Below, piece after piece: positions 5,987 to 64,000 of a stretch of DNA of 64,000 bases (the stretch's first letter is position 1; each line of letters starts with the position of its first letter). The stretch is from positions 365,126 to 429,125 of the forward strand of contig JAJDCD010000023.1 of NCBI GenBank assembly GCA_029261035.1. The letters are read 5' to 3'. This DNA is from Candidatus Omnitrophota bacterium (GTDB lineage Bacteria > Omnitrophota > Omnitrophia > Omnitrophales > JACROU01). The notes beneath the pieces were generated by a model. That model searched no databases, was not told the DNA's origin, and worked only from the letters and a program-made list of their open reading frames with translations. Both the position numbers and the translations under genes were made by a program.

Positions 5987-6098
5987 GAGCCCAGGGAACA
6001 TTCTCCGCCCTGCCTACCGGCAGGCAGGCGCGAAACGTTGAATATGACCCTTCGGGCCAAAGCTGTTGTCTGAGCGCCGGAGAATGTTTCCTGGGCTC
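5987..6098. repeat. GC-rich structured element with 21-bp terminal inverted repeats enclosing a near-perfect 20-bp palindrome
   Basis: The arms are gagcccagggaacattctccg (5987-6007) and cggagaatgtttcctgggctc (6078-6098), with one mismatch between them. An internal palindrome cctgcctaccggcaggcagg lies between the arms. Confidence 0.6.
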
Positions 6099-58418: not shown

Positions 58419-58576
58419 AAACCCCAAAATTGACTAGCCAAAGTGCCTAAAATCCGTATACTATATCGCTACTGAAACAAGTAAAAGACAGGCTCGAATT
58501 ATTCGGATGTTTTTATCGCCTCCCTGCCAGTTTGTTGGGCAGGGAAATCCAAAAAAATTTAGAATAACACCTTATT

Positions 58577-58800
58577 CCCTGGTGCTTCCGCCACGGCGGA
58601 CAGGCAGCAGGTACGAGCAAGCATCACCGAAGGTGAACAAGTCTTTAGAGTGAAGAAACAATTTATGTAAGCAAATAAAAAAGTTAATCCCTGGTAGCTC
58701 AGTTGGTACCTGCCTGCCGGCAGGCAGGGAGTAAGCTTCGCCCAAGGTGAACAAGCCTTTAGAGTGAAGAAACAATTTAAGTAAGCAAATAAAAAGTTAA
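58577..58800 (+). repeat. Tandem ~113-bp units, each a tRNA-Asn leader plus the first ~25 nt of the tRNA and capped by a GC-rich palindrome
   Basis: 58631-58708 is about 95% identical to 58744-58821, which runs into the intact tRNA. The truncated copy ends in the perfect palindrome cctgcctgccggcaggcagg at 58709-58728. An earlier, more degenerate unit ends …ttccctggtg + ccgccacggcgg at 58577-58600. Confidence 0.7.
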
Positions 58801-58876
58801 TCCCTGGTAGCTCAGTTGGTAGAGCAAGCGACTGTTAATCGCTTTGTCGCAGGTTCGAGTCCTGCCCGGGGAGCCA
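58801..58876 (+). tRNA. tRNA-Asn (anticodon GUU)
   Basis: The cloverleaf folds by hand. The acceptor is UCCCUGG/CCGGGGA, the anticodon loop is CUGUUAA and the T-arm is GCAGG-TTCGAGT-CCTGC. GCCA is encoded at the 3' end. Confidence 0.85.
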
Positions 58877-60520
58877 TTTAGAAGTAAATGCGAACTTTTT
58901 GGAATTTTCGTCGTAACTGACGGGAATTGAAGGAATTGCGTACATTGTCACGACAAACCTAAACCAAGAAGTTCTTAATTTACTAATAAAAGCCTCAGCT
59001 TCGGCTGGGGCTTTTACTTTTTTGTGGTTAACACTTTCAATACGAACTTCTTTGATTAGCAAGTTAATGAGTTGCTTCTTTTCTTCCATCGAAAGCTTGT
59101 GAATATATTCACCAAATCGAGCTAAGGTTTCTTGAACCGTATCACGCTCAAGCTGTTGAGAATTCTGCACATTTAACTCCACGCAAATTTTCTCAAGCTT
59201 CGCTGTAAGCGCATCCTTCATATCAGCCAGCTTACTAACTTCCTCAGACATTCTTTTAGTCGCCTTTGGGCTATCTTTAATAATTTGAATGAACTTCTCA
59301 GTTTCTTTATCGTTTCTTACAAGCTCCTTGCGGATAGAGTCTTCTTTCTTGAGCAACTTCTTCAATTCATCTGAGCACTCTTTGGTGGAAGCTTTGATAA
59401 CCTCATGAATAACTTTAGGTTGCTGACTTAGCTGTTTCAGATACTCAATGATCGTATTTTCTAGCAATCGAGCAGGTAACCTTCTCACGTTGCAAGAAGA
59501 GGCTTTTTTATAATGTCCGACTTCTGTGCAAACATAATAAAGGTAAGGGTTACCGTCTTTGTCCTTTTTCCCACTAGGCGTGGGAGTCATAGAACATCCA
59601 CAGTCTTTGCAAACAAGAAGGCCTTTTAGTAAATGGTGGTGCTTATCAGTCTCAGGGTTAATTTTTATTTTTTTATCAGGAGGTGATTTTTTCATAACGG
59701 CATTGGCTTTCTCATAAAGAGTTTTTGAGATTAATTTTTCATAGCGATGTTTTCCTAATTGTCCATTGTGAATCATATAGCCGTAGTAAAATGGATTTTT
59801 GATCATTCTATGAATACTGTCTTCACGAAACTTTTTTCCACCTATGTTGACTTGCTTGCCATTTTTTCGGGTAACCACTCGGGATTTGGTTAAATGACCT
59901 TCTTCAGCGAGACGCTTTGCAGTTTTAGACAAAGTCATACCGGCGGCAATACTTTCAAACATAAGCTTAATAGCTTTTGCTTCTTTCTTATTAACCGTTA
60001 ATTCCTTTTTCTCAATGTGATAGTCAAATCCATAAGGGATAAATCCACCACCCCATTTTCCACGCTCAAAGTTTGCTTGCATCTTATCGCTCGTTCGTTC
60101 ACTTATAAGTTCGCGTTCATATTCCGCAAAGCTTAGAAGGATGTTTAGCATAAGACGACCGGATGAACTCGAAGTATCAAAACTCTGAGTAGCAGAAGCA
60201 AACTCCACTTTCTTGCTCTCAAGCAATTTGTTGAATTCATAGAACTTAATAAGAGACCGGCTGACACGATCCACTTTATAAGTAATAACTGCGTCAACAT
60301 TACCAAGCTCGACCTCTGCCATAAGCTCTTTGATGCCGGGACGATCCAAGTCCTTACCTGAGAATCCGGGGTCTACAACAGTCTTTACGTGCTCCCAGCC
60401 CTGTTCCTTGCGTATAGCAATGAAATGCTGGCAGGTCTCAATCTGGTTCTCAATAGAGGTGATTTCGCCCTTATTCTGCTCTGCTGTAGAGACACGGGCG
60501 TATATATAGCATCTTTTCAT
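58835..60520 (-). CDS. Large serine recombinase (integrase)
   Basis: It has the N-terminal resolvase catalytic domain (YARVSTAEQ), a recombinase domain, a zinc ribbon (CKDCGC…C) and a C-terminal coiled coil. Its 3' end overlaps the tRNA-Asn on the opposite strand. Confidence 0.85.
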   Translation of the reverse strand: MKRCYIYARVSTAEQNKGEITSIENQIETCQHFIAIRKEQGWEHVKTVVDPGFSGKDLDRPGIKELMAEVELGNVDAVITYKVDRVSRSLIKFYEFNKLLESKKVEFASATQSFDTSSSSGRLMLNILLSFAEYERELISERTSDKMQANFERGKWGGGFIPYGFDYHIEKKELTVNKKEAKAIKLMFESIAAGMTLSKTAKRLAEEGHLTKSRVVTRKNGKQVNIGGKKFREDSIHRMIKNPFYYGYMIHNGQLGKHRYEKLISKTLYEKANAVMKKSPPDKKIKINPETDKHHHLLKGLLVCKDCGCSMTPTPSGKKDKDGNPYLYYVCTEVGHYKKASSCNVRRLPARLLENTIIEYLKQLSQQPKVIHEVIKASTKECSDELKKLLKKEDSIRKELVRNDKETEKFIQIIKDSPKATKRMSEEVSKLADMKDALTAKLEKICVELNVQNSQQLERDTVQETLARFGEYIHKLSMEEKKQLINLLIKEVRIESVNHKKVKAPAEAEAFISKLRTSWFRFVVTMYAIPSIPVSYDENSKKFAFTSKWLPGQDSNLRQSD

Positions 60521-60613
60521 AATTATTCCTTATTTCTGCATTGAAGGTTATTTTAATATACGAACTTAATAAATATAAAAAATCCCCTACTCATTTTTCA
60601 ATAATAGGGGATA

Positions 60614-61117
60614 TTAAATTAACTTTAGTTTAAGCAATCTTATCCACATAGCCTGTTCGCTAATATCATATTTCTTAGCCAAAGACTTGGCGTCCTTCGT
60701 GGATTTGAAGTCGTCTTTAATCGCAAGTGATGGCATTAAGAGCTCACTTGCAAAATGGTTAGCTTCTTGCTCTTGGAAAGCATTTTCACATGTTGTATCA
60801 AACATTCCATCGGCAACCTCTGCCGGGTCAAGTATTGAATCAACATGATGCCCAAGCATATAGTGCCCAATTTCATGAGCTATTGAGAATCGCTGTCTAT
60901 TTGTAGGATGATTCTTGTTCACTCCTACAACAATTAAGTCATTATCTTTCATAAGAACAGCAGATACTTTTTTTTCCGGAAAATCGTACGGTAGGTAATT
61001 AATATTCAGATAATTCAACAATTCTTTAACCGGAACTGGAGGAAAATCAACCTTCGAGTCTTTTAGAAGCTTTTGGGCGATCTTATTTGCAAGTGTATAT
61101 CGTGGTTTTAAAGCCAT
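60614..61117 (-). CDS. ImmA/IrrE-family zinc metallopeptidase
   Basis: It has a HEIGHYMLGHH (HEXXH) motif. The protein is 167 aa and is co-transcribed downstream of the XRE repressor. Confidence 0.75.
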   Translation of the reverse strand: MALKPRYTLANKIAQKLLKDSKVDFPPVPVKELLNYLNINYLPYDFPEKKVSAVLMKDNDLIVVGVNKNHPTNRQRFSIAHEIGHYMLGHHVDSILDPAEVADGMFDTTCENAFQEQEANHFASELLMPSLAIKDDFKSTKDAKSLAKKYDISEQAMWIRLLKLKLI

Positions 61118-61515
61118 TAATTCTTTTTCCCAAATTTCTTTCTTGCGAGTGCAGCGAAGTCGTTAAGAGATTTTTCAACTTCTTTATCATTCTTTTCCGA
61201 GCGCATTTTAAAAGCAAAACTATTTGTACTTGGTGTGGTCTTTGAATTCGGGAAAAACTCGTCGATTGAAGTGTCGAGGATGGCAGCTATTTTGGCAAGT
61301 ACTTCCACCTTAATGCCTCGATCTCCGTTCTCAAGATGGGCAATTGCTTGAGAAGTTTCATAGTGAATAGCTTTAGCCAAGTTTTCCTGAGAAAGCCCTT
61401 TTGCTAACCTAAACTCTTTAATTCTTCTTCCAGCATATTTTCGAATATGGATGTCATCGTTAATATTTTCGAGATTCATAGGAGCAATTTTACCTGTTTT
61501 AGGGGGTAAACTCAA
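61117..61515 (-). CDS. XRE-family helix-turn-helix transcriptional repressor
   Basis: It has the HTH motif GLSQENLAKAIHYETSQAIAHLENG. The protein is 132 aa. Confidence 0.75.
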   Translation of the reverse strand: MSLPPKTGKIAPMNLENINDDIHIRKYAGRRIKEFRLAKGLSQENLAKAIHYETSQAIAHLENGDRGIKVEVLAKIAAILDTSIDEFFPNSKTTPSTNSFAFKMRSEKNDKEVEKSLNDFAALARKKFGKKN

Positions 61516-61546
61516 TTAAAATGGTTCTTGTATCAACATTGATCAA

Positions 61547-61590
61547 AATATGGTTTCTATGCTTGACCAGAAACCATATTTTGGTAAAAT
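61547..61590 (+). promoter_or_regulatory. Rightward promoter TTGACC-16-TAAAAT embedded in a perfect 12-bp inverted repeat (putative operator)
   Basis: aatatggtttct (61547-58) and agaaaccatatt (61569-80) flank TTGACC (61563-68). TAAAAT is at 61585-90. The site lies between the divergent repressor gene and the + strand genes. Confidence 0.55.
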
Positions 61591-61735
61591 AAAGCCGAGA
61601 GTCGAATTAGCTTAATCGCATAACCCGTTTGACTCTCGGCTGCTGTTTAGCGATAGTGGTCATTATAAACAGGCTAAAGATCTCGTCAAGAAGAAGGTTC
61701 TTCTTGATTTCTTGGGTTATCGGAGGAAAAAGAGC

Positions 61736-61876
61736 ATGGCTAATAAAGAAAGAGAAACTAGACTTCAAGGTCGAGATGCTAAGAACGGACAGTTTATTAC
61801 CAGAAAAGAAGCTGAACGTCGTCCAAATACAACGGTAGTTGAGAGAGTTCCTCTACCTGGAAAAGGACGCAAGTAA
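61736..61876 (+). CDS. Small basic protein (46 aa), not in the ORF track
   Basis: GGAGG lies 10 nt upstream of the ATG. It encodes MANKERETRLQGRDAKNGQFITRKEAERRPNTTVVERVPLPGKGRK and is the first gene after the operator/promoter. The overlapping ORF-track call at 61629-61838 lies in another frame and is less convincing. Confidence 0.4.
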   Translation: MANKERETRLQGRDAKNGQFITRKEAERRPNTTVVERVPLPGKGRK

Positions 61877-62085
61877 CTCGTTCTTCCAAAGTCAACCAAA
61901 AGCCCTAATGGTGTAAAGCCATTAGGGCTTTCTCCATTAAAGATTTTACCTCGTCTATATATAAGCTTCACAAAGCCCATACAACGTAACCACGAAGATG
62001 CTCGCTTAGAGCTCCGTGATCTATCCGTCATTTCCTCGCAGGCACCCTCGCTTTTATTCTTCTGAATAACCACAGGAGAATAAAG

Positions 62086-62583
62086 ATGAATCATCAATCC
62101 AATCTTACAAACGAAGAAATCACCATCATTAACCGCGTATCTGGCAAGTTCCTAAAGCGAGTGAAGTGGAATCATCATTGGGAACTAGAGGACATGCGCC
62201 AAGACCTTATTGTCTTTTGGCTTACCAAGAAGCAATCTGGCTGGAAACGACCCACCGAGTGGCAGGGGGCAATGGGCATATGTCTCATTCTCCACCTCAT
62301 TGATCTGCAAAAGAAAGAATGTGCAGATAAACGTCAATCTCTTGGAAGCATGACTTCGCTCAATCAGCTCATAGAAAAGGGATTTGATATTCCTGATGAA
62401 TCGGAGCAATCCGCATCACTTTCTGATTTTTTAAACATGCTGAATTCCAGAGAAAGAAACATCTGCCATTTATTCTTGGGCGGAAAAAATAAATCGCAAG
62501 TAGCCTCATCCATCAAGCGTAGTCGTCCCTATCTCAATCAAAGATTGAAATATGTCAGACACCTCGCGGAGCAATATCTATGA
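62086..62583 (+). CDS. Sigma-70 region-4-like DNA-binding protein (small sigma-factor-like regulator)
   Basis: A C-terminal SRERNICHLFLGGKNKSQVASSIKRSRPYLNQRLKYV resembles the sigma70_r4 HTH. The N-terminal part is not obviously region 2. Confidence 0.45.
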   Translation: MNHQSNLTNEEITIINRVSGKFLKRVKWNHHWELEDMRQDLIVFWLTKKQSGWKRPTEWQGAMGICLILHLIDLQKKECADKRQSLGSMTSLNQLIEKGFDIPDESEQSASLSDFLNMLNSRERNICHLFLGGKNKSQVASSIKRSRPYLNQRLKYVRHLAEQYL

Positions 62584-62642
62584 AACCTCACTTTACATTT
62601 TGTCGATTTTTTTCGGATCAGTAGGTAAAGGAGGAAAACGAA

Positions 62643-62792
62643 ATGCAGGATTTGAGATGCCCTAATTGCAATAAAAAATTAGCAGAAGTGCCGGAGGATT
62701 TTTTTGAGACTGAGGAAGGAAAAGATGCGCTTAGGAATAAAAGAAAAGTTTTCATCAAATGCACTAAATGCAAACGAATTATCGAATTTTAA
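62643..62792 (+). CDS. Com-like zinc-ribbon protein (49 aa; CxxC…CxxC), not in the ORF track
   Basis: It encodes MQDLRCPNCNKKLAEV…IKCTKCKRIIEF, and AGGAGGAAAA lies 8 nt upstream. The pattern is that of phage Mu Com-type translational regulators. Confidence 0.5.
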   Translation: MQDLRCPNCNKKLAEVPEDFFETEEGKDALRNKRKVFIKCTKCKRIIEF

Positions 62793-62953
62793 ATACCCCC
62801 TACACCGCACAAAAGTGTTTGTGGGCTTCACATTCTTAACTGCTTTCCTCCCTTGTGCTTATGAAACGCACATTGCCTGACCTCACTCTCTCTTCGTAGA
62901 TAGATCGAGGTCAGGTAAACGGGAGGAAAGCTAAAGAACACAGGAGGAAAGAA

Positions 62954-63649
62954 ATGAAAATTACTAAAAGGGATATTGAATTAATGGGGTGGGTTTTAGA
63001 ACAGAAAGTAATGACAAGAAAACAAATTAGGCAAATATTTTGGAAGGATATATCAGATAAAAGTATTGAGGATTATCGAAGGTTGAACGAATTGAAGAAA
63101 GAAGGTTATTTAAAAACAAGTAAGAAAGAAATCTATAAGGAAATTCTTTATTTGGTGACCGGAAAGGGGGTTAAGCAGTTACGGGCTTTTTCGAGAAATA
63201 GAGGTTTGTGTGAATTATGTGATGCGGGTTATTCAAACTATAAGCATGACGGCGTGGTTACGGATATTCGGGTAATGTTGCACAAGTGGGGTTATGAAGA
63301 TTGGGTCTCCGAACGGGTTATGGCAAGAAGGAATGATTTAAGACGATTGCCGGACGGCATCATCCATCATCGGGGAAAGTATTTCGCCATTGAATATGAA
63401 GCGACTCAAAAATCAAAATCGCGATATCGGGAAATCTTCTACAACTACGAATTGGATGACAGCATTGACCATGTTGTCTATGTAGTAGATACGCCGGAGT
63501 TGGTGACTAAGATGAGTGAGCTGGCTGCAACATGTGGAAAGATTTTTTTCGTACAACTTGAAGACTTGGAAGAGAATCAGGTGAATGCTTCTCTTTCAAA
63601 TGAGTTCGATCAACTTACCTTGCATGAATTATTAGAGGTGAGAAATTGA
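62954..63649 (+). CDS. Replication-relaxation-family-like protein (winged-helix N-terminus)
   Basis: The N-terminus ITKRDIELMGWVLEQKVMTRKQIRQIFW…YRRLNELKKEGYL matches the Replic_Relax pattern (LT.RD..IL..L…LT..QI…F……RRL..L…G). Confidence 0.45.
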   Translation: MKITKRDIELMGWVLEQKVMTRKQIRQIFWKDISDKSIEDYRRLNELKKEGYLKTSKKEIYKEILYLVTGKGVKQLRAFSRNRGLCELCDAGYSNYKHDGVVTDIRVMLHKWGYEDWVSERVMARRNDLRRLPDGIIHHRGKYFAIEYEATQKSKSRYREIFYNYELDDSIDHVVYVVDTPELVTKMSELAATCGKIFFVQLEDLEENQVNASLSNEFDQLTLHELLEVRN

Positions 63650-64000
63650 ATCTGTTGATTGAGTTTTTCAACGAAGTATTCTTTCAACTGCCTTTGAGTT
63701 TGAGCAAAGTAATTGTGGCTGGGCTCAAATCCAATAAACAGCCCAAGCGGTTTTATTGCATCTGGGGTTTGGTATGTGCAACCGCTTTAATTGCTGGAGC
63801 TGGATTCATTCGCTTAGCCGGAAATCCGCTAACTCAATTCATCGACAAACTCAACCCCTCATGGCTTCTGATAGGTGGTTATGGAACCTATCTTTTGATA
63901 ACTACTCTTATTCTCCTGCCTTTCCAGCACTTGCAAGGAAAAGGCGTAACGAAAGGTAGCTTCCGTAAGATTAAGTACAAGCCTGAGCAAATGCTCAAAG
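63646..64000 (+). CDS. Partial ORF for a small membrane protein, open to the window end
   Basis: The frame is uninterrupted from TTG at 63646 (or GTG at 63715) to the window end. Two hydrophobic helices are present (FYCIWGLVCATALIAGAGFI; SWLLIGGYGTYLLITTLILLPF). Confidence 0.3.
   Translation, partial: MNLLIEFFNEVFFQLPLSLSKVIVAGLKSNKQPKRFYCIWGLVCATALIAGAGFIRLAGNPLTQFIDKLNPSWLLIGGYGTYLLITTLILLPFQHLQGKGVTKGSFRKIKYKPEQMLK

What the first reader, a model, noticed from the sequence alone, without database searches (positions are those of the whole stretch)
58801..64000. ICEBs1-like immunity/integration module with serine recombinase at tRNA-Asn
The gene order is tRNA, then recombinase, ImmA-like HEXXH protease and XRE repressor on the minus strand. 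An operator-embedded promoter and + strand cargo follow. This reproduces the ImmR/ImmA-controlled left end of Firmicute ICEs and some phages. Here the integrase is a 561-aa large serine recombinase whose 3' end overlaps the tRNA. The cargo visible in the window includes a Com-like zinc-ribbon ORF, a sigma region-4-like protein and a replication-relaxation-like protein. The element continues beyond the window, so its right end and att site cannot be seen.
Basis: partly seen in the sequence, partly recalled or inferred. Interest (0 to 1): 0.6.

Follow-up and report, generated by a model that had tools for sequence, protein, structure and literature searches.

The report
Conjugative element inserted in tRNA-Asn
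The window ends in the left arm of a self-transmissible mobile element of an uncultured Omnitrophota bacterium, inserted by a large serine recombinase into the last bases of the tRNA-Asn gene; it is a new example of a well-known kind of element, with a few unusual details at the junction.

Summary
The order is tRNA-Asn (58801-58876), a 561-aa large serine recombinase (LSR) on the minus strand overlapping the tRNA by 42 nt, an ImmA-like HEXXH protease, and an XRE repressor. A promoter embedded in an inverted repeat follows, then plus-strand genes.

The plus-strand genes are a transfer module, not cargo: an ECF-like sigma factor, a zinc ribbon, a conserved inverted-repeat region (candidate oriT), a MobC-type relaxase (PF13814) and a VirD4-type coupling protein that runs off the window. 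A 100%-identical contig completes the coupling protein. Relatives (84-87% coupling protein) continue with VirB2, VirB4, VirB6 and VirB9; a 66% relative adds VirB10. So this is an integrative conjugative element (ICE).

The host is Omnitrophota. A related genome has the same dnaX-recR-tRNA-Asn site empty, and similarity stops exactly at the tRNA 3' end. Junction comparisons place the crossover in CGGGGAGCCA (58867-58876). The last ~10 LSR codons and its stop codon are therefore host tRNA DNA.

A hairpin terminator for the tRNA, conserved with covariation, lies antisense inside the LSR gene. Two decayed tRNA-Asn copies upstream remain unexplained.

It resembles ICEBs1 only in regulatory logic and is not a family member. 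It is a new member of a known kind, of moderate interest.

The parts
58801..58876 (+). tRNA-Asn (GTT), the integration target. It is intact in the integrated state.
   Evidence: ARAGORN and Rfam, 69.2 bits. It is 76/76 identical to the tRNA at the empty site of relative L037.
58867..58876 (.). Interval that must contain the LSR crossover (attL core): CGGGGAGCCA, the 3' acceptor strand plus CCA.
   Evidence: Right bound: similarity to the empty site L037 ends at 58876. Left bound, from relatives: L003 and L004 are identical up to this point and then diverge. The LSR 3' ends of L004, L015 and L019 continue into non-tRNA DNA right after CCCCG. The Legionella locus L011 has a direct repeat starting at GGGGAGCCA.
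58877..58905 (.). Element-side half-site (P' arm), TTTAGAAGTAAATGCGAAC..., which also encodes ...KFAFTSK of the recombinase.
   Evidence: This DNA is almost invariant among loci whose LSR proteins are only 59-67% identical to the window's (window, L003, L004, L012, L014, L019).
58835..60520 (-). Large serine recombinase, 561 aa. The last ~10 codons (QDSNLRQSD) and the stop codon lie in host tRNA DNA. The stop is the reverse complement of tRNA positions 35-37.
   Evidence: Pfam Resolvase, Recombinase and Zn_ribbon_recom; PHROG integrase 7.7e-116. Among its 120 best homologues, 27 have tails reading WLP followed by tRNA-derived residues.
58987..59026 (+). Intrinsic-terminator-like hairpin with a UUCG loop and a T tract, in the tRNA's direction. 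It lies antisense inside the LSR ORF and encodes KAPAEAEAF.
   Evidence: Found by the terminator scan. It is present in 7 loci, with 98.8% of cells paired and 4 pairs changed on both sides; slid controls give 33-63%.
60614..61117 (-). ImmA/IrrE-like M78 metalloprotease, 167 aa, with the motif HEIGH.
   Evidence: Pfam PF06114 5.7e-17; PHROG metallo-protease 1.5e-21.
61117..61515 (-). XRE/Cro-CI-type repressor. It is 132 aa from TTG at 61515, or 120 aa from ATG at 61479. It overlaps the protease start by 1 nt.
   Evidence: HTH_3 6.1e-14; PHROG transcriptional repressor 4e-14. The gene caller used the 120-aa form in L001.
61539..61590 (.). Candidate operator (inverted repeat 61539-61558 / 61569-61588) enclosing the rightward promoter TTGACC-16-TAAAAT (61563-61590).
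   Evidence: These are consensus and repeat matches only; no binding was shown.
61487..61689 (-). Two candidate leftward promoters. TTGAGT-17-TAAAAT (61515-61487) ends 7 nt before ATG 61479, which would give a leaderless mRNA. TTGACG-16-TATAAT (61689-61662) would face the rightward promoter. A 14-bp-stem hairpin (61593-61641) lies between the rightward promoter and the distal (61689-61662) leftward promoter.
   Evidence: Which promoter is used is not known.
61736..61876 (+). Small basic ORF (46 aa, or 54 aa from TTG 61712), followed by a perfect 13-bp hairpin at 61899-61931. It is part of the exchangeable regulatory cassette.
   Evidence: It matches no family. It is absent from L009, L010 and L024; DNA similarity to L009 and L010 starts at 61957.
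62086..62583 (+). Divergent ECF-like sigma-70 family protein (regions 2 and 4), 165 aa, and the first conserved backbone gene.
   Evidence: TIGR02937 E=0.001. Only 12 relatives exist among 1.84 billion representatives. The family profile hits PDB 3mzy (sigma-H) at 1.8e-7 over residues 33-162. Individual members hit Sigma70_r2 at 2.5e-9, Sigma70_ECF and r4_2.
62643..62792 (+). 49-aa CxxC...CxxC zinc-ribbon protein, conserved next to the relaxase gene in all relatives.
   Evidence: Pfam Mut7-C zinc-ribbon part 2.3e-5. PHROG 'translational regulator' 7e-4 gives weak support for 'Com-like'. Homologues are in L009, L010 and L024.
62842..62931 (.). Candidate oriT: nested inverted repeats directly upstream of the relaxase gene. 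Outer stem 62842-62852 / 62921-62931; long hairpin 62876-62893 / 62898-62915.
   Evidence: This non-coding stretch is nearly invariant in the window, L010, L009 and L024, although L024's coupling protein is only 66% identical. The pairs are kept, some through changes on both sides. The function is inferred.
62954..63649 (+). MobC-superfamily relaxase candidate (Replic_Relax), 231 aa.
   Evidence: PF13814 8.3e-8, above its cut-off; NCBIfam MobC-family 2e-14. PF13814 equals CONJscan MobC according to PMC5357655.
63646..64000 (+). Start of the VirD4/TraD-type coupling protein (547 aa), cut by the window end.
   Evidence: The complete protein is in L002, which is 100% identical over 62239-64000. 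NCBIfam TraD 3.4e-34. Precomputed Pfam domains: TraG-D_C, TrwB_AAD_bind and T4SS-DNA_transf.

Best explanation
This is the left ~5.1 kb of an integrative and conjugative element (ICE) in an Omnitrophota chromosome.

**Integration.** A large serine recombinase inserted the element into the 3' end of tRNA-Asn, with the crossover inside CGGGGAGCCA (58867-58876). The element restores the last few bases of the tRNA. It also supplies a new terminator for the tRNA, placed antisense inside the recombinase gene. The recombinase ORF runs across the junction. Its last ~10 residues and its stop codon are therefore host-encoded while the element is integrated, and they must change on excision.

**Regulation (inferred).** The XRE repressor, the ImmA-like protease and the recombinase are read leftward as one group. 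The repressor binds the inverted repeat over the rightward promoter and keeps the transfer genes off. A signal would make the protease cleave the repressor.

**Transfer (inferred).** Derepression expresses an ECF-like sigma factor, a zinc-ribbon protein, a MobC-type relaxase acting on the conserved inverted-repeat oriT just upstream of its gene, and a VirD4-type coupling protein. Beyond the window come a second sigma-like protein and a VirB-type secretion system.

**Shown:** gene content, the empty site, the junction bounds, the hairpin covariation, and synteny with relatives that carry type IV secretion genes.

**Inferred:** repressor cleavage, operator binding, oriT function, the sigma cascade, and present-day mobility.
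For: - Domains of all window genes.
- Extension by the 100%-identical contigs L001 and L002.
- Transfer genes in relatives. L009 and L010 (coupling protein 84-87%) carry TrbC/VirB2, an 824-aa VirB4, TrbL/VirB6 and CagX/VirB9 in the same order. L024 adds TrbI/VirB10 and shows an element of at least 28 kb bounded on one side by a homologous LSR.
- Host assignment: every named RecR relative is Omnitrophota/Omnitrophica.
- Empty site: L037, with an identical tRNA and a break in similarity at 58876.
- Crossover bounds.
- LSR tails.
- Terminator hairpin covariation.
- oriT-like conserved inverted repeats.
- No close LSR relative in viral contigs (34% identity at most).
Against: - The secretion genes of this particular copy are not visible, because the sequence stops 1.76 kb past the window.
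- The right junction (attR) was not seen, and neither was an excised form.
- No recombination directionality factor was identified.
- The crossover's left bound comes from relatives (LSR 56-67% identical to the window's), not from this element's own attP.
- Promoter, operator and terminator calls are pattern matches. The promoter scan as a whole found no more sites than shuffled sequence does (14 against 11.9 expected).
- The two decayed tRNA copies upstream are not explained by this model.
Confidence: 0.85

Rival explanations
1. An integrative mobilizable element, or a decayed ICE remnant. It would keep the recombinase, relaxase and coupling protein but lack a working mating-pore apparatus, so it either depends on another element or no longer moves.
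For: No secretion gene is visible for this copy; the sequence ends at window-equivalent 65761. The trio of serine integrase, MobC relaxase and VirD4 exists without a secretion system in streptococcal class 8 IMEs. The decayed tRNA copies upstream suggest this site has a long history.
Against: Every visible gene is an intact ORF. In L009 and L010 the same backbone, in the same gene order including the 109-aa sigma-like gene that ends L002, is followed directly by VirB2, VirB4, VirB6 and VirB9 genes.
Confidence: 0.1
2. A prophage or phage satellite. ImmA/XRE pairs next to a serine integrase are also common at prophage left ends.
For: PHROGs matches the integrase, the metalloprotease and the repressor. 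The zinc ribbon weakly matches a phage 'translational regulator' family.
Against: The window and its relatives contain no capsid, terminase, portal or tail gene. Instead they contain a relaxase, a coupling protein and VirB-type genes. LSR relatives in 2.9 million viral contigs reach only 34% identity.
Confidence: 0.02
3. A fixed genomic island that only sits next to the tRNA. The recombinase-tRNA overlap would then be a chance read-through with no link to integration.
For: GC content does not differ clearly from the flanking chromosome.
Against: The same overlap, in the same reading frame, recurs in LSRs that are only 28-32% identical, in other hosts (L011 Legionella and L039). It also appears in 27 of the 120 best homologues. 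A relative has the site empty.
Confidence: 0.03

Closest known systems
ICEBs1 of Bacillus subtilis (from my own knowledge of the literature)
   Same: A leftward immR-immA-int group lies next to attL at the 3' end of a tRNA gene. The transfer genes are read rightward from a repressor-controlled promoter. The predicted logic is derepression by protease cleavage of the repressor.
   Different: ICEBs1 uses a tyrosine integrase with Xis, a MOB_T (Rep_trans) relaxase NicK, an FtsK-like coupling protein ConQ and a Firmicute-type (FA) secretion system, and is controlled by RapI-PhrI. Here there is a large serine recombinase, a MobC (PF13814) relaxase, VirD4/TraD and VirB-type genes, two sigma-like proteins and an Omnitrophota host. 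The immR/immA cassette is missing from the closest relatives.
Streptococcal class 8 integrative mobilizable elements (PMC5357655)
   Same: The same trio: serine integrase, MobC/PF13814 relaxase and VirD4 coupling protein.
   Different: Those elements have no mating-pore genes and live in Firmicutes. This lineage carries VirB2, B4, B6, B9 and B10 genes in its relatives and targets a tRNA.
LSR island at tRNA-Asn in Legionella adelaidensis NCTC12735 (NZ_LR134433.1, locus L011)
   Same: The LSR gene ends inside tRNA-Asn in the same reading frame (...WLPGQDLNL*). A direct repeat starts at GGGGAGCCA.
   Different: The LSR is only 28% identical. The island carries a tyrosine recombinase, AbiE and restriction-modification genes and no transfer module. 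It has no upstream pseudo-tRNA copies.
tRNA-targeting tycheposons of Prochlorococcus with LSRs (bioRxiv 10.1101/2020.12.28.424599)
   Same: Some of these integrative elements at tRNA genes use a large serine recombinase. They also show tandem arrays and partial tRNA copies at hot spots.
   Different: They are non-conjugative, and 910 of 937 use tyrosine recombinases. Their partial tRNAs separate adjacent elements or lie scattered through the islands, whereas here the extra copies are 5' copies upstream of the tRNA.
att site inside an ORF: SSV1-type integrases and mycobacteriophage integration-dependent immunity (from my own knowledge)
   Same: Integration changes the C-terminal end of an element-encoded protein, because attP lies within its gene.
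   Different: In those systems the change has a shown effect: the integrase gene is split, or a degradation tag is removed. Here only a ~10-residue tail is swapped, and no functional consequence is shown.

Membership tests
Integrative and conjugative element (ICE) | A site-specific recombinase at one end, next to the junction with the chromosome. | tested here: met
   The LSR at 58835-60520 abuts and overlaps tRNA-Asn. A relative has the site empty.
Integrative and conjugative element (ICE) | A relaxase and a type IV coupling protein. | tested here: met
   PF13814/MobC at 62954-63649. VirD4/TraD starts at 63646 and is complete in the 100%-identical L002.
Integrative and conjugative element (ICE) | VirB4 ATPase and mating-pore genes in the same element. 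| tested here: inconclusive
   They are not visible for this copy. They are present directly downstream in L009, L010 and L024 in the same gene order.
Integrative and conjugative element (ICE) | A second junction (attR) with a repeat of the core, or an excised circular form. | not testable with these tools
ICEBs1 family | Tyrosine integrase Int. | tested here: not met
   The integrase is a serine recombinase.
ICEBs1 family | MOB_T (Rep_trans) relaxase NicK, FtsK-like ConQ and FA-type secretion genes. | tested here: not met
   The element has a MobC/PF13814 relaxase and VirD4/TraD. Relatives have TrbC, TrbL, CagX and TrbI.
ICEBs1 family | An ImmR (XRE) repressor with an ImmA (M78) anti-repressor, co-transcribed with int. 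| tested here: met
   HTH_3 and Peptidase_M78 with HEIGH, a 1-nt gene overlap, and the same order as in ICEBs1. Cleavage of the repressor was not tested.
Large serine recombinase | An N-terminal resolvase catalytic domain, plus a recombinase domain and a zinc ribbon. | tested here: met
   All three Pfam domains score above their cut-offs. The motif YARVSTAEQ is at the N-terminus.
Large serine recombinase | A 2-bp crossover between short attP and attB sites that are otherwise dissimilar. | tested here: inconclusive
   The crossover is bounded to a 10-nt interval. The dinucleotide itself is not resolved.
MobC (MOB_C) relaxase | A match to PF13814 / CONJscan MobC. | tested here: met
   33 bits against a cut-off of 25.3. 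The NCBIfam MobC subfamily match, 2e-14, is below its strict cut-off.
Sigma-70 / ECF sigma factor (165-aa ORF) | Region 2 plus region 4. | tested here: met
   The family profile matches PDB sigma-H at 1.8e-7 over residues 33-162. Family members hit Sigma70_r2, Sigma70_ECF and r4_2. The window protein alone scores only E=0.001.
Temperate phage / prophage | Capsid, portal, terminase or tail genes. | tested here: not met
   None occur in the window, in L002 or in relatives. Viral-contig relatives reach 34% identity at most.

The most novel reading that the evidence does not exclude
The LSR clade found here may be built around its overlap with the tRNA. Because attP lies inside the recombinase ORF, the enzyme carries a host-encoded tail (QDSNLRQSD) when integrated and a different, usually shorter, tail when excised. 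That could make its activity or stability depend on the element's state, as in integration-dependent immunity. The element also brings its own terminator for the tRNA. The piled-up 5' pseudo-tRNA copies, found only next to this clade, might record a so-far undescribed way in which these elements duplicate or replace the target tRNA gene.
Probability: 0.12. Interest if true: 0.65.

Novelty: new member of a known kind. Interest (0 to 1): 0.4.

Why it matters
- It documents a self-transmissible element family in Omnitrophota, an uncultured small-genome phylum. The literature searches found no ICE with a serine recombinase described for it.
- It points to an LSR clade that targets the nearly universal 3' end of tRNA-Asn, with defined candidate attB and P' sequences. 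This could interest people who mine serine integrases as genome-engineering tools.
- It shows that the ImmR/ImmA switch is an exchangeable cassette that also occurs on VirB-type ICEs outside Firmicutes.

None of this changes how ICEs are understood.

Tried and rejected
- **Retrieving the source contig.** An exact look-up of the LSR found no indexed contig. The 630-kb NCBI contig exists but is not retrievable.
- **Plasmid database.** It matched only the tRNA.
- **Viral contigs.** They held only distant LSRs.
- **Metagenome scan.** It returned just 7 loci.
- **Intron in L010.** I tested whether the ~220-nt insert that splits tRNA-Asn in L010 is a known intron or ribozyme. No Rfam family reaches significance. 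It folds well (z = -3.7), but that proves nothing.
- **Crossover in the D-loop.** The duplicated 5' 21 nt first suggested this. I rejected it because the empty-site comparison and three attP-like junctions place the crossover at the acceptor 3' strand.
- **P arm carrying a full tRNA copy.** This would explain the upstream copies, but all three attP-like junctions (L004, L015, L019) have non-tRNA P arms.
- **Upstream units ending in a remnant of the P' arm.** The alignments look suggestive. Shuffle tests give at best p = 0.007 before correction, and nothing for L003, L012 or L014. The result is inconclusive.
- **165-aa protein against the 109-aa sigma-like family.** The hhalign comparison was not significant (E = 0.096). 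The sigma assignment rests instead.
- **Hairpin structure string.** My first string was off by two columns and was corrected.

Full report
**1. Observation check.**
- tRNA-Asn(GTT) lies at 58801-58876 on the + strand (Rfam 69.2 bits).
- On the minus strand, a 561-aa ORF (58835-60520) has Resolvase, Recombinase and Zn_ribbon_recom domains. Its last 42 nt lie inside the tRNA.
- A 167-aa Peptidase_M78 protein with the motif HEIGH follows (60614-61117).
- An XRE HTH protein (61117-61515) overlaps the protease start by one base.
- The intergenic region holds a 20-nt inverted repeat (61539-61558 / 61569-61588). Its 13-nt core occurs perfectly only at these two places in the window. It encloses a TTGACC-16-TAAAAT site.
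- The + strand carries ORFs of 46/54, 165, 49 and 231 aa, and a further ORF starts at 63646 and runs off the window.

**2. What lies to the right.**
- Two public contigs, L001 and L002, are 100% identical to the window over 58968-64000 and 62239-64000.
- L002 adds 1.76 kb. The ORF that starts at 63646 is a 547-aa VirD4/TraD-type coupling protein. A 109-aa protein with sigma-70 region 4 follows.
- In L009 and L010 the coupling protein is 84% and 87% identical. There the same gene order continues with TrbC/VirB2, an 86-aa protein, an 824-aa VirB4, TrbL/VirB6 and CagX/VirB9.
- In a 134-kb genome contig (L022/L024) a homologous recombinase (57%) bounds an element of at least 28 kb. About 16 kb of metal-efflux cargo sits between the recombinase and the same transfer genes, which end with TrbI/VirB10.
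- The element is therefore best read as an ICE. For this copy the mating-pore genes are inferred from synteny.

**3. Host and empty site.**
- All named relatives of the window's RecR are from Omnitrophota/Omnitrophica.
- A 2.17-Mb contig of a relative (L037, RecR 75% identical) has the same DUF4126-dnaX-recR-tRNA-Asn order and a tRNA identical at 76 of 76 positions.
- Similarity to the window stops exactly at the tRNA 3' end (58876). In L037 a native terminator hairpin and an autotransporter gene follow, and there is no recombinase.

**4. Where the crossover is.**
- In coding orientation, the last ~30 nt of the recombinase gene read AAGTTCGTATTTACTTCTAAATGGCTCCCCG. They are almost invariant among loci whose recombinases are only 59-67% identical to the window's.
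- Beyond CCCCG the sequence is tRNA-Asn in the window, L003, L010, L012, L013 and L014. It is unrelated DNA in L004, L015 and L019.
- L003 and L004 are identical up to this point and then diverge.
- In Legionella adelaidensis a 28%-identical recombinase also ends inside tRNA-Asn, in the same frame. A 105-bp direct repeat 12.4 kb away starts exactly at GGGGAGCCA.
- Together with the right bound from L037, the crossover must lie in CGGGGAGCCA (58867-58876).
- Three things follow. The element contributes only the last few tRNA bases. The codons after WLP (QDSNLRQSD) and the stop codon (tRNA positions 35-37) are host DNA. The tail must change on excision.
- Among the 120 best homologues, 27 end in WLP plus tRNA-derived residues. 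Eleven stop within three residues after WLP, and 10 have other tails. About ten more run into tRNAs in another frame.
- L039, in a relative of the host, has a 32%-identical recombinase at the same tRNA, ending QWLPGQDSNLRQA.
- No function of the tail is shown.

**5. A terminator inside the recombinase gene.**
- About 110 nt downstream of the tRNA, on the tRNA's strand, is a 12-13-bp GC-rich hairpin with a UUCG loop and a T tract (58987-59026).
- It is present in seven loci. 98.8% of cells are paired and four pairs changed on both sides. Registers slid by 1-3 columns give 33-63%.
- On the other strand it encodes the conserved KAPAEAGAF motif.
- The likely role is to stop tRNA read-through into the element, because the native terminator seen in L037 is displaced to the far end. 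This role is inferred.

**6. Regulatory cassette.**
- The order XRE, protease, recombinase matches immR-immA-int of ICEBs1 (my own knowledge).
- The inverted repeat covers the -35 and -10 hexamers of the rightward promoter.
- There are two candidate leftward promoters. One ends 7 nt before ATG 61479, which would give a leaderless mRNA. The other, at 61689-61662, would face the rightward promoter. These are pattern matches only.
- DNA similarity to L009 and L010 begins at 61957. So 60583-61956, which holds the protease, the repressor, the control region, the small ORF and its hairpin, is an exchangeable cassette absent from the closest relatives.

**7. Transfer module.**
- The 165-aa protein belongs to a very small family, with 12 relatives among 1.84 billion representatives. 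The family profile matches sigma-H over both domains, and members hit Sigma70_r2, Sigma70_ECF and r4_2.
- The zinc-ribbon gene is conserved next to the relaxase gene in all relatives.
- Between the zinc-ribbon gene and the relaxase gene lies a nearly invariant non-coding stretch with nested inverted repeats (62842-62931). It is a candidate oriT.
- PF13814 corresponds to the MobC relaxase superfamily (PMC5357655).

**8. Unexplained: pseudo-tRNA copies.**
- Upstream of the tRNA are two 113-114-nt tandem units (58575-58687 and 58688-58800). Each starts with a 5' part of tRNA-Asn. An exact 31-nt repeat is at 58678-58708 and 58791-58821. Each unit is interrupted by a GC-rich palindrome.
- Unit 1 sits where the native tRNA sits in L037.
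- Comparable 5' copies occur in every locus of the 56-67% recombinase clade in which the LSR abuts tRNA-Asn (L003, L010, L012, L013, L014).
- They do not occur at the empty site L037, in L039 or in Legionella.
- A crossover at the 3' end does not produce 5' copies. The ideas I tested failed or were inconclusive.

**9. Comparison with known systems.**
- The element works like ICEBs1 only in its repressor/anti-repressor layout. It fails the membership tests for integrase, relaxase, coupling protein and secretion type.
- The trio of serine integrase, MobC relaxase and VirD4 is known from streptococcal class 8 IMEs.
- LSR elements at tRNAs are known from Prochlorococcus.
- Surveys find that tyrosine integrases dominate at tRNA targets.
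- I found no description of an LSR-driven ICE in Omnitrophota.
- Verdict: a new member of a known kind, with junction details worth a note.

Noticed in passing
window 58575-58800: Two tandem 113-114-nt units lie directly upstream of tRNA-Asn. Each begins with a 5' part of the tRNA and is interrupted by a GC-rich palindrome. The exact 31-nt repeat is at 58678-58708 and 58791-58821. Unit 1 occupies the position of the native tRNA in relative L037. Similar 5' pseudo-copies occur next to every recombinase of the 56-67% clade that abuts tRNA-Asn, but not at the empty site. Their origin is unexplained.
   Followed up: yes
window 5987-6098: A 112-nt element in a 560-nt intergenic region, with a 21-bp closing stem. 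Its MFE is -66.6 kcal/mol (z = -7.6). It has no Rfam match and only one copy in the window. It contains the same 20-nt palindrome, CCTGCCT(A/G)CCGGCAGGCAGG, that interrupts pseudo-tRNA unit 2.
   Followed up: partly
L010 1044-1340: Next to the 56%-identical recombinase, the tRNA-Asn is split. Positions 1-21 are followed by ~220 nt of structured sequence and then positions 22-76. The two acceptor strands still match each other. ARAGORN finds no tRNA there, and no Rfam intron or ribozyme matches.
   Followed up: partly
L037 10899-11430: At the empty site of the relative, the tRNA is followed by about 2.25 tandem copies of a 238-nt unit. Each copy starts with the last 21 nt of tRNA-Asn plus the native terminator. 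They may be scars of earlier elements or a plain tandem duplication.
   Followed up: no
L012 7787-8059 (also L013): A 90-aa GIY-YIG nuclease ORF (Pfam 9.6e-14) lies between a 29-nt 5' fragment of tRNA-Asn and the complete tRNA. The ORF reads into the tRNA's 5' part.
   Followed up: partly
L011 20004-32612 (Legionella adelaidensis NZ_LR134433.1): A 12.4-kb island at tRNA-Asn is bounded by a 105-bp direct repeat that starts at GGGGAGCCA. It carries an LSR whose ORF ends in the tRNA in the same frame as here, plus a tyrosine recombinase, AbiE and restriction-modification genes.
   Followed up: partly
L003 1-11689; L019 1-11689: Recombinases of the same clade (59-66% identical) bound islands with no visible transfer genes. 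These islands carry defence genes: a type III restriction-modification system, SIR2 with HerA, and a PD-(D/E)XK nuclease. In L019 the recombinase tail runs into a second island carrying another LSR.
   Followed up: no
L022/L024 (GCA_040960315.1, JBFOMO010000391.1): A related ICE carries about 16 kb of metal-resistance cargo (RND efflux, multicopper oxidase, two CDF transporters). The cargo sits between the recombinase and the transfer module, where the window has the ImmA/XRE cassette. Its recombinase ends in a degenerate T-arm-like sequence, not a detectable tRNA.
   Followed up: partly
window 61593-61641 and 61899-61931: There are two strong hairpins in the control region. A 14-bp stem lies between the rightward promoter and the distal leftward promoter candidate. 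A perfect 13-bp stem follows the small basic ORF. Their roles are unknown.
   Followed up: no
proteins P0171-P0205: More distant members of the recombinase family (35-40% identical) end in peptides typical of a tRNA read in another frame, such as ...GRTRTADPVVNSHLLCQLSYWG. ORFs running into a tRNA therefore seem general in this LSR clade and not limited to tRNA-Asn.
   Followed up: no
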